DNA of 64,000 bases from Candidatus Xenobia bacterium. GTDB lineage: Bacteria > Vulcanimicrobiota > Xenobia > Xenobiales > QWHO01. The translations under genes were made by a program, and so were the position numbers. Positions 46,044-53,097 of the stretch are shown one piece after another (the first letter of the stretch is position 1; each line of letters begins with the position of its first letter). The notes below the pieces were generated by a model that was given only the letters and a program-made list of their open reading frames with translations, was not told the origin of the DNA and searched no databases. The stretch is taken from contig BTUM01000008.1 of assembly GCA_045863235.1 (NCBI GenBank), positions 64,001-128,000 of the forward strand, read 5' to 3'.

Positions 46044-48269
46044 TTACGAACGTCGGGAAGACGAGGAAGAGCGCCGGCGACGTCCTCCTCCGCTGCTCGA
46101 GGAGGCGGAACGTTGCCCGCCGCCACCCGAGCCACCCGAGCCACCTGAGCCGCTCGAGCGGCGGCGCCGACGAGAGCTGTCCGAATCGCCATCCGAAGCC
46201 CGGTAGCGCGAAGCAGCGGCCCGACTCGACTCGAGCAAAGCCAGCTTGGAATCGACCGGGGCTGGCTCATCGTCGTCGTCTCGAGTCCGACGGCCACGCG
46301 GCTCGTCATAGTAGTCCTCGTCGTGATAACGAGGGGCTGGCTCGCTGCGGCGGTAATCGTCCTCGTAAGAGGGTGGCGCGCTCCTGCTACCGCTCCGGCT
46401 CCCGCTCCCACCCCCGCTTGTGCTGGCGCTACTGCGACCGCGCCGCCCGCGGCCCGAGCTTTCGTAGGCTCCGGTTTCCACGCTCGATTCGCGCGCAGAG
46501 CGGTACCGGTCGTCGCGTCCTCGACCCGAGCGAGGGGCCTCCTCGCGACTGTACTCCTCCCGCTCGCGATAAGCGGGCGGCTCGTCACGATAATCCTCTC
46601 GCTCATAGCGGGGCGAATAGTCTTCTCGCTCGTAGTCGTCATAGTAGCGGCGAGTCGAGCTCTCCTCGTATCGATCGTCGGGCGGGTAAGCAGCCGCTCG
46701 CTCGGAAGTCGAGGTGCGGCTCTCTGCTTCGGAATCACGCCGACTGCGACGGCGCCGACGCGAGCGACTGGAAGTGCGCTCCTCTTCGGGCTCGTGAGTC
46801 GAGACGTGGCGGGTCTCGACCGGAGGAGCATCGTCCTCCTGACCTCGCCGACGGCGACGGCGGCGCTTGGAGCGCCCGTCCCCCCGCTCGGAAGCGGTCG
46901 CAGGCTCTTGCTGCTGGTCGTAGTGCACCTCGAGGTCTGACTCCACGTTGAAGTGGCGCCCGCGCAGAGCTCCGTTTCGCCGGGTGCCGCCACGCCCAGA
47001 GCGGCTCTCCTTCTCTCGTGGAGCGCGCTCGGCCGGAGCCACCGCGCCTCCCATGCCGAGTCGACTGGCCAGCCGGTGGGCCAGTTCGCTCAGGTTGTAG
47101 CGATCCTTGTGGTCGCTGTGACGGTCGTGAACCTGGGCCACGCCCCGGATAGCGTCCTTCTCGCTCAACAGAACGAGGAAACGAGGAGCCTCGGGAGCTT
47201 CCTCTCCGCCCAGCGCCATTTCAGCGTAAATCCCAGCCTCGCGCAGCACATTCAGAACCGGCATCAGAAGACGGGTGGCTTCCTCGCCTTCCGGCTGCAG
47301 GTAAACCGATGGAGAGGGCCGCGTGAACTCGCCGGGCACAGCTTCCAGAATCGCTTCCAGTTGGAGGGCAAAGCCGACGGCCGGGGTATCCGGTCCACCC
47401 AGGGTCTCCACCAGGCCATCATAACGACCACCGGTGCCCAGCACCGATTCGCCGTGTCGAACCTGGAAGATTGTGCGGTTGTAATACTCCAGGTCGCGCA
47501 CCACGCGCGGATTCAGGTCGTGAGGAATCTTCATCTCGGCCAGATAGGCCTTGAGCTGACTGAAATGCTGCTTACAGGCCGGGCAGAGCAGGCCGAACAT
47601 GGTGGGGGCCACCTGCCCGAGCTCAGCGCAACTCTTCTCGTTGCAACCCAGCGTCCAGAGCGGATGAGTCTTGTGCTTGCGCTTGCAAGTTCCACAAAGC
47701 TCGTTGGAATGGGACGAGAAGTACTCCTTGAGAACCTCATGGTAAGCCGGGCGACACTTGTCGCATCCCAACGAGTTGAGCTCGAAGACCACGTCGCTCA
47801 AGCCGATGCGCTTGAGGAACGCCCAGGCCAGGGCGATCACCTCGGCATCCTGGGCCGGGTGGGGCGAACCCAGAGCTTCGACCCCGAACTGGTGGCTCTG
47901 TCGGCTGCCTTCCTCGGTCTCCCGGCCGATCAGGAAGACGGGGGCCAGGTAGTAGAACTTGCTGACGCCCTGGTTCTTCTCGTTGAGGTTGTTCTCATAG
48001 TAAGCGCGTACCACCGAAGCGGTGACATCGGCTCGCAAGGCCAGCTTCTGGCCAAACTTGTCGTGGAAGGTCCAGAGCTCGCGCTCGACGAGCCCGGCCA
48101 GGACTCCCATCCCCCTCACGAAAAGCTCCGCCTTTTCGAACAGAGGGGTTCGAATCTCGAGATAACCGTATTGCTGACTGAGTAACCGGGCCTGACTCTC
48201 GATCAGTTGCCAGCGGGATGTCTCTTCCGGTAGTAGATCACGGGTGCCACGCACCGCTCGGACAGACAT
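46044..48269 (-). CDS. Histidyl-tRNA synthetase paralog, probably inactive, with long Arg/Ser/acidic disordered tail
   Basis: RGTRDLLP, EIRTPLFE, Cys-rich insertion, VRDLEYY, GGRYDGL, PAVGFA; motif 2/3 Args missing. Confidence 0.9.
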   Translation of the reverse strand: MSVRAVRGTRDLLPEETSRWQLIESQARLLSQQYGYLEIRTPLFEKAELFVRGMGVLAGLVERELWTFHDKFGQKLALRADVTASVVRAYYENNLNEKNQGVSKFYYLAPVFLIGRETEEGSRQSHQFGVEALGSPHPAQDAEVIALAWAFLKRIGLSDVVFELNSLGCDKCRPAYHEVLKEYFSSHSNELCGTCKRKHKTHPLWTLGCNEKSCAELGQVAPTMFGLLCPACKQHFSQLKAYLAEMKIPHDLNPRVVRDLEYYNRTIFQVRHGESVLGTGGRYDGLVETLGGPDTPAVGFALQLEAILEAVPGEFTRPSPSVYLQPEGEEATRLLMPVLNVLREAGIYAEMALGGEEAPEAPRFLVLLSEKDAIRGVAQVHDRHSDHKDRYNLSELAHRLASRLGMGGAVAPAERAPREKESRSGRGGTRRNGALRGRHFNVESDLEVHYDQQQEPATASERGDGRSKRRRRRRRGQEDDAPPVETRHVSTHEPEEERTSSRSRRRRRSRRDSEAESRTSTSERAAAYPPDDRYEESSTRRYYDDYEREDYSPRYEREDYRDEPPAYREREEYSREEAPRSGRGRDDRYRSARESSVETGAYESSGRGRRGRSSASTSGGGSGSRSGSRSAPPSYEDDYRRSEPAPRYHDEDYYDEPRGRRTRDDDDEPAPVDSKLALLESSRAAASRYRASDGDSDSSRRRRRSSGSGGSGGSGGGGQRSASSSSGGGRRRRSSSSSRRS

Positions 48270-48309
48270 GATTCACAAACCTCCGCGGATGAGGGACCGG
48301 GCGCATGGC

Positions 48310-48338
48310 TTGCGCGCCGACGAAGTCCCTTCGATAAT
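48310..48338 (+). promoter_or_regulatory. Sigma70-type promoter pointing into ORF-free structured region
   Basis: TTGCGC-17 nt-GATAAT. Confidence 0.45.
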
Positions 48339-48344
48339 GGTGGG

Positions 48345-48643
48345 CGCCGGCCGTGCCACTCGGGGAGGATGCTCGCGATCGTCTCAGTGTCTGCGACCTT
48401 TCGTCTCGCAGAAAGGATGGCGCGACAAAGGCCGGTGAACGTGGTTCCACGATACCTGACGTTTCACTATTCAGTTTGCGCCGAATCGGCTCTCTCTTTG
48501 TCGCCATCGGTTGCTCGCGTCGGAGCATTCCCCTTCGGTATCAGGGCATCGGACCCTGGGGATGTCGGGGTAGGTTAACCCGGCGGCCTGGAGGGGAAAG
48601 TGGCCTGCTTTCCACGCTGTCATCGCAACGGCTACCCGACATT
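48345..48643 (+). ncRNA. Candidate structured ncRNA (6S-like rod ~48353-48541 plus a second domain 48561-48643)
   Basis: Nested complementarity GGATGCTC/GAGCATTC, GATGGCG..ACAAAG/CTTTGTCGCCATC, TCTGCGA/TCGCAGA; G-U pairs favour + strand; upstream promoter. Confidence 0.45.
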
Positions 48644-48692
48644 GAGTTGTTTCGGGGAAGAAGCCAAGTTTCCTCTCCGGCCAGGAATGGCC

Positions 48693-50000
48693 TCAGGAAA
48701 CGACCTCTTCGATCAATGGCCGCGGGCTGGTTGGGGTGGCTGCAATCGAGATAGCTTCGCCGATCAGAGCCCGAGAGGTCTGGAGTTGGGAACGGTCGTT
48801 GACGTGGAACGTCAGCAAAGGCTCTCCGGCTTCGACCCGATCGCCCAGGCGTTTGTGGAGGACAAGTCCGACGGCGTGATCGATGGGGTCGTCCTTGCGC
48901 AGTCGACCTGCCCCCAGCACCATCGCCGCGCGGCCCAGGGTCTCTGCCTGCAGACTTGCCACAAAGCCCGACTCAGGGGCCGGATAGTCCTCCAGGTGAG
49001 ACGCGGTGGGCAAGAGTCCCGGGTCGTCCACCACCCGAGCGTCCCCTCCCTGGGCACTGATGAGTTCACGCAACTTCTCGGCGGCCGCGCCGGACTGTAT
49101 CAATCGGCCAGCCTCGGCGCGCGCAGCCGAAAGGTCCGACTGCAAACCGGCCATTTCCAGCAGATGAGCGGCCAACTCGCGGGCCACCTGAGCCAGCGCC
49201 GAATCTGCCCGCTGACCCTGGAGAATCTCAATGGCCTCACGAAACTCGAGCGCGTTGCCGATGTGCGTTCCCAAGGGTTGCTCCATATCCGACAGGGCGG
49301 CGCGAACCTTGCGACCCAGGCGCTTGCCAATGGCCACCATCGAGCGAGCCAGGCGACGGGCGTCTTCCAGATTCTTCATGAACGCCCCGTGACCAAACTT
49401 GACGTCCAGCAGGATCGCATCGGCGCCACAGGCGAGCTTCTTGCTCATGATCGAGCTGGCGATCAGGGGGATGGAATCCACCGTGGCGGTCACATCGCGC
49501 AGGGCGTACATCTTGCCATCGGCCGGCACCAGGCTCCCGGTCTGGCTGATGACGGCCACACCGATGCGGCGCACCTGCTCGAGAAACTCCTCGGCTGACA
49601 GGTTGACGCGCAGCCCGGGCACAGACTCCATTTTGTCCAGCGTGCCTCCGGTGTGGCCCAGACCCCGCCCCGACATCTTGGCCACCCGGGCCCCTGCGGC
49701 GGCAGCCAGTGGTGCTAGAACCAGCGTGGTCGTATCCCCCACCCCTCCGGTGGAGTGCTTGTCGACCTTGACGCCGGGGATACTGGAAAGGTCGACCGTG
49801 TCCCCCGATGCCACCATCGCCTCGGTGAGCCAGCCAGTCTCCTCGTCGGTCATGCCCCGAAGAAAGACTGCCATCATCCAGGCCGACATCTGGTAGCTCT
49901 CCATGCGGCCAGCCACGAACTCGCTGATCAAGAAGCGGATTTCCTCGGCGCTGTGGGCCTCTCCGTCGCGCTTGCGTCGGATCAGGTCGTAGACCCTCAT
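48693..50000 (-). CDS. pdp: Pyrimidine-nucleoside phosphorylase
   Basis: DKHSTGGVGD, KMSGRGLGHTGGTLDK, SSIMSKK. Confidence 0.96.
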   Translation of the reverse strand: MRVYDLIRRKRDGEAHSAEEIRFLISEFVAGRMESYQMSAWMMAVFLRGMTDEETGWLTEAMVASGDTVDLSSIPGVKVDKHSTGGVGDTTTLVLAPLAAAAGARVAKMSGRGLGHTGGTLDKMESVPGLRVNLSAEEFLEQVRRIGVAVISQTGSLVPADGKMYALRDVTATVDSIPLIASSIMSKKLACGADAILLDVKFGHGAFMKNLEDARRLARSMVAIGKRLGRKVRAALSDMEQPLGTHIGNALEFREAIEILQGQRADSALAQVARELAAHLLEMAGLQSDLSAARAEAGRLIQSGAAAEKLRELISAQGGDARVVDDPGLLPTASHLEDYPAPESGFVASLQAETLGRAAMVLGAGRLRKDDPIDHAVGLVLHKRLGDRVEAGEPLLTFHVNDRSQLQTSRALIGEAISIAATPTSPRPLIEEVVS

Positions 50001-52973: not shown

Positions 52974-53013
52974 ACCCCGGCTGTATTTTATCGTGCGGCG
53001 CAGAAGCCAATTC

Positions 53014-53097
53014 AGCGACGACAGGAGCGGTCGACGGAGTTAGCGGCGACAGGAGCGGTCGACGGAATTAGCGACGACGGGAGCGGCCGACAGAATT
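53014..53097 (+). repeat. Three tandem 28-bp repeats in rplU 5' leader
   Basis: AGCGACGACAGGAGCGGTCGACGGAGTT / AGCGGCGACAGGAGCGGTCGACGGAATT / AGCGACGACGGGAGCGGCCGACAGAATT. Confidence 0.9.

What the first reader, a model, noticed from the sequence alone, without database searches (positions are those of the whole stretch)
48310..48541. Promoter-driven rod-shaped RNA head-to-head with the pseudo-HisRS gene
Seen: the 420-bp pdp/hisS-like gap has no credible ORF. TTGCGC-17-GATAAT precedes nested stems GTGCC/GGTAT, GGGGA.GGATGCTC/GAGCATTCCCC, GATGGCG..ACAAAG/CTTTGTCGCCATC, GTGAACGT/ACGTTTCAC and a side hairpin TCTGCGA/TCGCAGA. G-U pairs favour the + strand. The ends loosely recall 6S RNA (GGATGCTCGC ... 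GCGTCGGAGCAT), but the central bubble asymmetry is atypical. Inference: a divergent 6S or a new ncRNA, and a candidate partner for the adjacent RNA-binding pseudo-synthetase.
Basis: partly seen in the sequence, partly recalled or inferred. Interest (0 to 1): 0.7.

Follow-up and report, generated by a model that had tools for sequence, protein, structure and literature searches.

The report
Structured leader of a pseudo-synthetase mRNA
The folded RNA is probably not a separate 6S-like RNA but the long, conserved front end of the messenger for a neighbouring catalytically dead tRNA-synthetase copy, where it may act as a switch that hides or exposes that gene's ribosome-binding site.

Summary
The stems are real, but the reading as a plus-strand 6S-like RNA is not supported. 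There is no Rfam hit, and the genome's 6S lies on another contig. The proposed -35 box is lost in relatives. Folding scores and G-U exchanges lean to the minus strand. One metatranscriptome contig runs from the hisS-like coding region through the gap to 48624; another study's contig stops at 48625 (contigs give no strand). About 370 nt (48270-48641) are as conserved as coding DNA within the genus and stay beside the hisS paralog where another gene replaces pdp upstream. Best reading: a structured 5' leader of the pseudo-HisRS mRNA. One strand has two alternative partners, and one fold buries the Shine-Dalgarno sequence. The trigger is unknown; autoregulation by the Arg-rich pseudo-enzyme is my first guess. 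The sequence family is confined to one genus, covariation there is not significant, and no promoter was found. T-box, 6S and HisZ readings fail their tests.

The parts
48270..48642 (-). Conserved structured 5' leader of the pseudo-HisRS gene (whole element)
   Evidence: Aligns to G004 in one block with the hisS-like CDS up to 48641 at 74%; RNA contig 46180-48624; folds
48356..48542 (-).
   Evidence: z -2.78 here and -2.32 in G004, similar architecture; 170 of 172 cells paired in 4 sequences
48523..48527 (-). Switch strand UGCUC with two possible partners (local 48512-48516, distant 48370-48374)
   Evidence: Invariant in 4 of 4; distant pairing; local pairing
48509..48519 (-). First copy of an 11-nt direct repeat (local partner of the switch strand)
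   Evidence: 3 matches in the window against 0.19 expected, pattern chosen after seeing it; 10 of 11 columns invariant
48367..48377 (-). Second copy of the repeat: 3' strand of the rod's closing helix, running into the anti-SD
48364..48368 (-). Anti-Shine-Dalgarno CCUCC
   Evidence: Invariant in 4 of 4; pairs with the SD in 35 of 36 cells of a 9-bp helix, no two-sided change
48390..48412 (-). Side hairpin; its loop reads CGAAAG (GNRA-type) on the minus strand
   Evidence: Loop letters invariant in 4 of 4
48433..48487 (-). Distal junction with two hairpins; sequence largely replaced in G004, hairpins kept in another register
48542..48558 (-). Small 6-bp hairpin upstream of the rod
   Evidence: 30 of 30 cells paired, one U-G/C-G exchange
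48562..48642 (-). Upstream domain: long-range helix enclosing two hairpins; RNA contigs of two studies end inside it (48624, 48625)
48293..48329 (-). Hairpin between the rod and the ribosome-binding site
   Evidence: 19 of 20 cells paired
48334..48342 (-). Conserved single-stranded stretch. Role unresolved.
48280..48284 (-). Shine-Dalgarno GGAGG of the pseudo-HisRS gene
   Evidence: sequence; invariant in 4 of 4
46044..48269 (-). Pseudo-HisRS (hisS*), 741 aa: HisRS body lacking the motif-2 and motif-3 arginines, plus about 320 aa of Arg/Ser/Asp/Glu-rich low-complexity tail
48693..50000 (-). pdp (pyrimidine-nucleoside phosphorylase), upstream neighbour; not part of the element
   Evidence: in G004 a 261-aa ORF lies between pdp and the leader

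Best explanation
The gap is the roughly 355-370 nt structured 5' leader of the pseudo-HisRS (hisS*) mRNA, transcribed on the minus strand, and it controls expression of that gene after transcription. Shown: conservation, foldability, linkage to hisS*, and RNA contigs that join it to the coding region. Inferred from folding only: two folds of similar energy. In one, the strand at 48523-48527 closes the long rod and holds the anti-SD, leaving the SD more open. In the other, it pairs with the nearby repeat copy, and the freed anti-SD strand pairs with the SD and can reach over the start codon. Guessed: the trigger. Most likely the hisS* protein binds its own leader and represses itself (a probably dimeric HisRS body, two copies of an 11-nt motif, an Arg-rich tail), as RNase E does on the rne leader. 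I put about 0.6 on 'cis leader of hisS*' and about 0.3 on 'autoregulated switch' within the whole.
For: Conservation: the gap aligns with G004 at the level of coding DNA (74% block with the CDS to 48641; other coding blocks 73-82%), while the 324-nt ftsA-rplU gap does not align at the syntenic place. Linkage: single copy, beside hisS* in 4 of 4 genomes where it was found; kept in G004, where another ORF replaces pdp as the upstream neighbour. Strand: z -2.78 minus against -1.30 plus here, -2.32 against -1.99 in G004. RNAalifold recovers the rod on minus and not on plus. G-U/Watson-Crick exchanges on minus at 7 + 7 + 4 pairs. RNA: X13 has one contig 46180-48624; X2's contig stops at 48625; in X9 the gap bins have summed contig depth 32-67 against 8 on most of the CDS. 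Switch: the anti-SD pairs with the SD in the MFE of the 3' fragment in 4 of 4 genus sequences; both folds appear as MFE depending on the ends given. Parallel: genus g4 (another family) has an unrelated nested structure at the same place and strand, 16 of 78 pairs with two-sided change, 0 of 500 shuffles as high.
Against: Covariation in the genus is not significant: 1 two-sided change in each (119 and 204 of 500 shuffles reach it) and none; only 4-5 sequences, of which one is really divergent. The minus-strand structures were drawn by hand after seeing the alignments and omit the variable distal hairpin, whereas the plus-strand test used the untrimmed MFE (22 of 241 cells broken, but also 7 one-sided and 3 two-sided changes), so the strand comparison is not like for like. 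The whole leader folds no better than shuffles here (z -0.39, -1.39) or in L044 (z 0.83), and the SD-pairing fragments have z between -0.96 and 0.68; CCUCC/GGAGG pairing comes easily in GC-rich RNA. Contigs show neither strand nor level; X9's contig runs on to 48696; DNA carry-over was not excluded. No conserved promoter was found on either strand. The element is not detectable outside the genus, and some relatives have gaps of only about 130 nt. The g4 structure was derived from the alignment it was counted on. No binding was tested.
Confidence: 0.6

Rival explanations
1. The leader is a histidine-sensing translational attenuator. A ribosome on an upstream ORF that overlaps the hisS* start stalls at tandem His codons (48334-48342) when charged tRNA-His is scarce, and so keeps the anti-SD away from the SD.
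For: At least two adjacent His codons in the same frame relative to hisS* in 4 of 4 sequences. An ORF with an ATG in that frame exists in the window, L044 and G004 (96, 76 and 46 aa). The codons sit between anti-SD and SD. No HisG was found in 5 of 5 genus genomes, so histidine supply may vary. His leader peptides are predicted before hisS paralogs in bacilli (PMC2965389, passages).
Against: The start codon is at a different place in each lineage, and the region upstream carries 1-nt indels in L044, G004 and the X9/X13 contigs. The His codons vary non-synonymously (His to Tyr, His to Gln), not synonymously. A His-His pair in some frame of 370 nt is not rare (my estimate about 1 in 3). The scan found no terminator in the gap.
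Confidence: 0.12
2. An independent plus-strand small RNA, antisense to the hisS* leader, made from the GATRAT -10 box; not a 6S.
For: The plus strand also folds into the rod; GATRAT is kept in all 7 sequences; short RNA contigs lie mainly within the gap in X2, X8 and X9, with higher summed depth in X9; the outermost stem in this genome pairs better on plus.
Against: The -35 is not conserved; no terminator-like site after the rod; conservation extends 100 nt past the rod on one side and to the hisS* SD on the other; G-U exchanges lean to minus; one contig is continuous with the CDS at flat depth.
Confidence: 0.13
3. A stability or processing element without switching: a folded leader that protects the hisS* mRNA or marks a cleavage site that uncouples it from upstream genes.
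For: Two contigs end at 48624/48625, in the loop of a conserved hairpin, inside a helix that needs sequence up to 48642, which would fit a cut in a longer transcript.
Against: It does not explain the invariant unpaired strand, the repeated 11-mer or the invariant anti-SD.
Confidence: 0.1
4. No RNA function: slowly evolving, GC-rich intergenic DNA (promoter or protein-binding sites) whose folds are chance.
For: Whole-region z-scores near 0 in several sequences; no significant covariation in the genus.
Against: 370 nt conserved like coding DNA; nearly all changes in helices keep pairing; a distal junction with replaced sequence still folds into two hairpins; the stretch is in RNA-library contigs of all 4 runs laid.
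Confidence: 0.05

Closest known systems
E. coli rne 5' UTR (RNase E autoregulation)
   Same: A long, branched 5' leader before a gene for an RNA-binding protein with a long low-complexity C-terminal half. There, structure rather than loop sequence is conserved and the protein binds its own leader (PMC13692253, abstract; PMC3997798, passages).
   Different: No sequence likeness claimed. hisS* has no nuclease domain, so control would have to be by hiding the SD or recruiting another enzyme. Binding is not shown here.
E. coli thrS operator (ThrRS translational autorepression; recalled, not read here)
   Same: A structured leader before a class II synthetase gene, with two similar motifs that a dimer could bind.
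   Different: No conserved GUG anticodon-like loop in this genus' leader (by eye); the protein is catalytically degenerate and a second, intact HisRS is encoded elsewhere.
hisS T-box and His leader-peptide attenuators of bacilli (PMC2965389, passages)
   Same: Regulatory leaders before hisS-family genes, where sensing systems switch between lineages.
   Different: No RF00230 match in this genome; the UGGN-like motifs are not conserved; no terminator; no conserved leader-peptide start.
6S RNA (RF00013)
   Same: About 190 nt, rod-like with a central opening.
   Different: No model match; the opening has a hairpin on one side and a short strand on the other; the genome's 6S is at G000:C34.
HisZ and the HisRS-like domain of GCN2 (for the neighbouring protein)
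   Same: HisRS fold that has lost catalytic residues.
   Different: Scores 153 bits against the HisZ cut-off of 271.65; no HisG found in the genus; no kinase domain; keeps the C-terminal domain region and adds a long Arg-rich tail.

Membership tests
6S RNA (RF00013) | Covariance-model match to RF00013 | tested here: not met
   No match at E <= 10 in 48200-48750 or in the G004 homolog; the own-genome search finds only C34:8852-9026, 35.5 bits, itself below the 46.4 cut-off
6S RNA (RF00013) | Distribution across the phylum like a housekeeping RNA | tested here: not met
   Model R1 finds it in 4 of 5 genomes of one genus only, whereas RF00013 finds one 6S each in 47 of 61 genomes
6S RNA (RF00013) | Binds sigma-70 RNA polymerase and templates pRNA | not testable with these tools
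   needs pull-down or in vitro transcription
T-box riboswitch (RF00230) | Covariance-model match | tested here: not met
   0 matches at E <= 10 in G000; 4 of 61 genomes at E <= 0.1, none over the cut-off, none in this genus
T-box riboswitch (RF00230) | Conserved UGGN bulge in an antiterminator or antisequestrator | tested here: not met
   The two UGGN-like stretches in G000 are changed in G004, or in G002, L044 and G004
T-box riboswitch (RF00230) | Stem I apex with AG bulge and T-loop | tested here: inconclusive
   A purine-rich strand before a hairpin with a GGC..AAA loop recalls it (recalled consensus); a pattern made afterwards hits leaders in 6 loci of 5 lineages' genomes but also 14 other loci or places
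His leader-peptide attenuator | Short uORF with a conserved start and a run of His codons | tested here: not met
   2-3 His codons kept, but starts differ and upstream frames shift
His leader-peptide attenuator | Intrinsic terminator before the gene | tested here: not met
   the only terminator-like site in 47900-48900 lies inside the CDS
RNase P, SRP and other Rfam families | Model match; gene not already present elsewhere | tested here: not met
   0 gathering-level hits in the window; RNase P and SRP found on other contigs; no tRNA or tmRNA in the window
Autoregulatory cis-acting 5' leader | Lies on the same transcript as the gene, upstream, single copy, linked to the gene | tested here: met
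   strand inferred, not read directly
Autoregulatory cis-acting 5' leader | Structure supported by covariation | tested here: inconclusive
   pairs kept but two-sided changes not above shuffles in the genus; above shuffles for the unrelated g4 leader
Autoregulatory cis-acting 5' leader | Gene product binds the leader and lowers its own synthesis | not testable with these tools
   needs EMSA and reporter assays
HisZ (neighbouring protein) | Score over the TIGR00443 cut-off and a short HisG partner in the genome | tested here: not met
Active HisRS (neighbouring protein) | Motif-2 and motif-3 arginines | tested here: not met
   both replaced in 13 of 13 hisS* sequences aligned (13 of the 37 order genomes with a match); present in the second HisRS L039 and in solved HisRS chains; TIGR00442 score still passes its cut-off

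The most novel reading that the evidence does not exclude
The leader is the RNA half of a new bacterial histidine or tRNA-His sensing circuit. A catalytically dead HisRS dimer, kept across a whole order beside a working HisRS, senses histidine or uncharged tRNA-His (as GCN2's HisRS-like domain does in eukaryotes), binds the twin motifs of its own leader and flips the SD-hiding switch; its long Arg-rich tail would let it act on other RNAs too. Each genus would have evolved its own leader for the same job.
Probability: 0.15. Interest if true: 0.8.

Novelty: new member of a known kind. Interest (0 to 1): 0.45.

Why it matters
It adds an RNA leader that is in no Rfam family, and it gives a first testable handle on an order-wide HisRS pseudo-enzyme that annotation pipelines would call histidine--tRNA ligase (it passes the TIGR00442 cut-off). 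If the protein binds this leader, its first RNA target and its ligand could be read out with a simple reporter. The RNA alone is genus-restricted and of moderate interest; the neighbouring protein is the more surprising part. Five paper searches touching it (listings and abstracts only, in a library lacking most subscription journals) showed no description of this paralog or leader.

Tried and rejected
6S, T-box, RNase P, SRP, tRNA, tmRNA: no match. Repeat or mobile element: single copy by BLAST and by covariance model. Small protein: ORFs not conserved in start or frame. Order-wide RNA family: model R1 gives at best 12.3 bits in 21 loci (20 hisS* loci of other genera and the 6S locus) and 18 bits or less in 3 of the 56 genomes outside the genus. 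Gaps of other genera do not align with this one; the g2 gaps give no consensus structure; Rfam gives only chance-level hits in 16 hisS* loci. A shared T-loop-like motif across genera was tempting, but the pattern was made afterwards and hits as often outside leaders. A minus-strand promoter candidate (48667-48662, 17 nt, 48644-48639) matches only 6 of 12 and is not kept in G004; sigma-54, sigma-28 and ECF spacings did not fit by eye. Bin 48721-48880 has no cover in any of the 4 runs laid; a hole in contigs proves nothing and is not used as evidence. One search had a structure string shifted by one column and was redone. The scan's earlier findings held nothing on this. Script-based work (genome-wide conservation controls, constrained folding energies, a tree of the two HisRS types) could not be done because the script machine was unavailable.

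Full report
1. Observation. The gap between pdp (48693-50000, minus) and the HisRS-like gene (46044-48269, minus) is 423 bp. On the plus strand it folds no better than shuffles: z 0.02, -0.02 and -1.30 for three choices of ends. The minus strand gives -0.97 for the wide cut and -2.78 for the tight cut 48356-48542; I chose the tight ends after seeing the fold. The promoter matches 8 of 12 letters and is not reported by the scan. Rfam gives nothing at gathering level in the window and only chance hits in the gap or in its G004 homolog.

2. Not 6S. RF00013 finds one candidate in this genome, on contig C34 (35.5 bits, E 4.7e-5, full length, below the 46.4 cut-off), and one each in 47 of 61 genomes. 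RNase P and SRP RNA lie on other contigs. No T-box model match exists in this genome.

3. Organism and neighbour. One of three genome records holding a 22-nt exact match is titled Vulcanimicrobiota; the other two carry a Burkholderiales label from their submitters. I take the phylum to be Vulcanimicrobiota (Eremiobacterota); that choice is my inference. The neighbour, hisS*, has a HisRS body that passes the TIGR00442 cut-off, but the motif-2 and motif-3 arginines of solved HisRS chains are replaced in 13 of 13 aligned order members (13 of the 37 order genomes with a match). A second HisRS with intact motifs is in this genome, and a match to it is found in 39 of 40 order genomes, two with a stop inside the match. 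HisG was not found in any of the 5 genus genomes (11 of 61 overall), so hisS* is not HisZ. A long low-complexity tail rich in Arg runs is present in the window and in all 5 relatives read in full (two further fetched stretches were not read).

4. Conservation. BLAST finds the gap in G002 and G003 (95%) and G004 (71% over 325 nt), plus two trivial hits of 25 nt or less, among 61 genomes. G001, the fifth genus member (90% complete), has neither the gap nor hisS*. Three metagenome loci add one new variant, L044. Against G004, the CDS and the gap form one block at 74% that ends at 48641; other coding blocks are 73-82%, and the 324-nt ftsA-rplU gap does not align at the syntenic place. This is a single control gap. 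In G004 a 261-aa ORF lies between pdp and the element, so the element follows hisS*, not pdp. A covariance model of the rod finds one copy in each of 4 genus genomes (179-231 bits; 3 are training sequences) and nothing credible elsewhere.

5. Strand and structure. G004 folds into a similar architecture although the distal part is largely replaced (z -2.32 minus, -1.99 plus). RNAalifold returns the rod as consensus on minus but a different fold on plus. For hand-drawn minus-strand helices, 170 of 172 cells pair in the rod, 131 of 134 in the upstream domain and 54 of 56 at the 3' end; 7, 7 and 4 pairs exchange between Watson-Crick and G-U, which would be A-C mismatches on plus. Two-sided changes are few (1, 1, 0) and not above shuffles. 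The plus-strand MFE has 22 of 241 cells broken, 7 one-sided and 3 two-sided changes; it was not trimmed as the minus structures were, so the comparison is biased towards minus. The -35 box is changed or lost in L044 and G004; GATRAT is kept in all 7 sequences. I read the sum as a lean to minus, not proof.

6. Expression. 20 of 23 runs listed hold part of 48100-48900, 14 of them on record as RNA. I laid 4 runs from 4 studies, all as contigs. X13 has one contig from 46180 to 48624 (a relative, about 90% alike); X2 has contigs 47987-48330 and 48320-48625 (identical to the window); X8 has 48257-48490; X9 has 46635-48290 and 48487-48696, with summed depth 32-67 in the gap bins against 8 on most of the CDS. 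Two studies stopping at 48624/48625 is a weak hint of an RNA end, and X9 goes past it. Contigs give no strand or level, and DNA carry-over is not excluded. Nothing suggests the very high abundance typical of 6S (recalled), though contig depth is a poor measure.

7. Mechanism. The strand UGCUC (48523-48527) can pair with either copy of an 11-nt direct repeat: 48509-48519 nearby or 48367-48377 at the far side of the rod (3 matches in the window against 0.19 expected, pattern chosen afterwards). The far copy runs into an invariant CCUCC, complementary to the SD GGAGG at 48280-48284. With the rod closed the anti-SD is held. In other cuts the MFE is the local hairpin with the SD paired, in G000 and G002 reaching over the start codon (G004, but rod closed; L044 has the SD paired with the switch strand in neither fold and a different fold). 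The 3' fragment alone pairs anti-SD with SD in 4 of 4 genus sequences. This would explain why the 'unpaired' side of the bubble is nearly invariant. It rests on folding predictions with z near 0 in GC-rich RNA and is inferred, not shown. The trigger is a guess. Autoregulation is my first choice by analogy with the rne leader, which RNase E binds (PMC13692253, abstract; PMC3997798, passages), and with thrS (recalled). His-dependent ribosome stalling is second: 2-3 tandem His codons lie between anti-SD and SD, and His leader peptides are predicted before hisS paralogs in bacilli (PMC2965389, passages), but starts and frames are not conserved here.

8. Other genera. pdp precedes hisS* in most relatives inspected, with gaps from about 130 to about 600 nt by eye. 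The g4 gap holds a nested structure on the same strand: 16 of 78 pairs with two-sided change, 0 of 500 shuffles as high, though the structure came from the same alignment (plus strand 11 of 62). Its invariant helix also has a 3' strand complementary to the SD, paired with it in the 3'-fragment MFE of 2 of 4. Three single gaps from family f3 fold at z -2.2 to -2.5 on the hisS* strand (plus strand not tested). The g2 gaps show no common structure. Structured leaders are thus common before hisS* but not homologous by any test I could run.

9. Literature. Searches (listings with abstract starts) showed no paper on this paralog or leader; two searches served the comparison. I read passages of PMC3997798 and PMC2965389 and the abstract of PMC13692253; no supplements were opened. 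Motif tables in supplements of comparative RNA screens could hold it.

10. Verdict. A real, genus-restricted, conserved and probably structured RNA element, most likely the 5' leader of the pseudo-HisRS mRNA (0.6), with a plausible but unproven SD-hiding switch. Not 6S, not T-box. New member of a known kind; interest 0.45, much of it owed to the neighbouring protein.

Noticed in passing
window 46044-48269 (-): Order-wide HisRS pseudo-enzyme (match in 37 of 40 order genomes) with a 200-600 aa Arg-rich low-complexity tail, kept beside a second, intact HisRS; not HisZ. Probably more interesting than the RNA.
   Followed up: partly
L029, L031-L034 (genus g3), about 330 nt upstream of hisS*: A short hairpin with a 7-nt YUGUGGU loop, like a tRNA-His anticodon arm, in 5 of 5 sequences and in G022; not seen in G010, G020 or G028. 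Possible tRNA mimic in that genus' leader.
   Followed up: no
L018, L020, L021, L023, L024, L027 (genus g4), pdp-hisS* gap: A separate conserved nested RNA structure of about 330 nt with two-sided changes above shuffles; no credible Rfam match in the four of them scanned.
   Followed up: partly
window 53010-53090: Short tandem-repeat element (about 28-nt unit, three copies) upstream of rplU; 38 matches in G000 and 28 in G004. REP-like.
   Followed up: partly
L001 1501-1675 (-), G000:C34:8852-9026: The genome's 6S RNA candidate, full length but below Rfam's gathering score; many relatives in the order also score below it.
   Followed up: partly
G004:C98:23911-25191 and G015:C294:2091-3407: The match to the second (intact-type) HisRS has a stop inside in these two genomes: assembly error, end of the ORF or frameshift not examined.
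   Followed up: no
L048-L050 (G024, G026, G028): Near-threshold T-box matches (81-86 bits) in three small genomes of family f3, while the rest of the order has none.
   Followed up: no
whole genome G000 and genus: No HisG found in 5 of 5 genus genomes and 0 of 19 in family f3: probable histidine auxotrophy in 5-9 Mb genomes.
   Followed up: no
L065 7966-8751 (+): A 261-aa ORF with a signal-peptide-like start is inserted between pdp and the leader in G004; family not searched.
   Followed up: no
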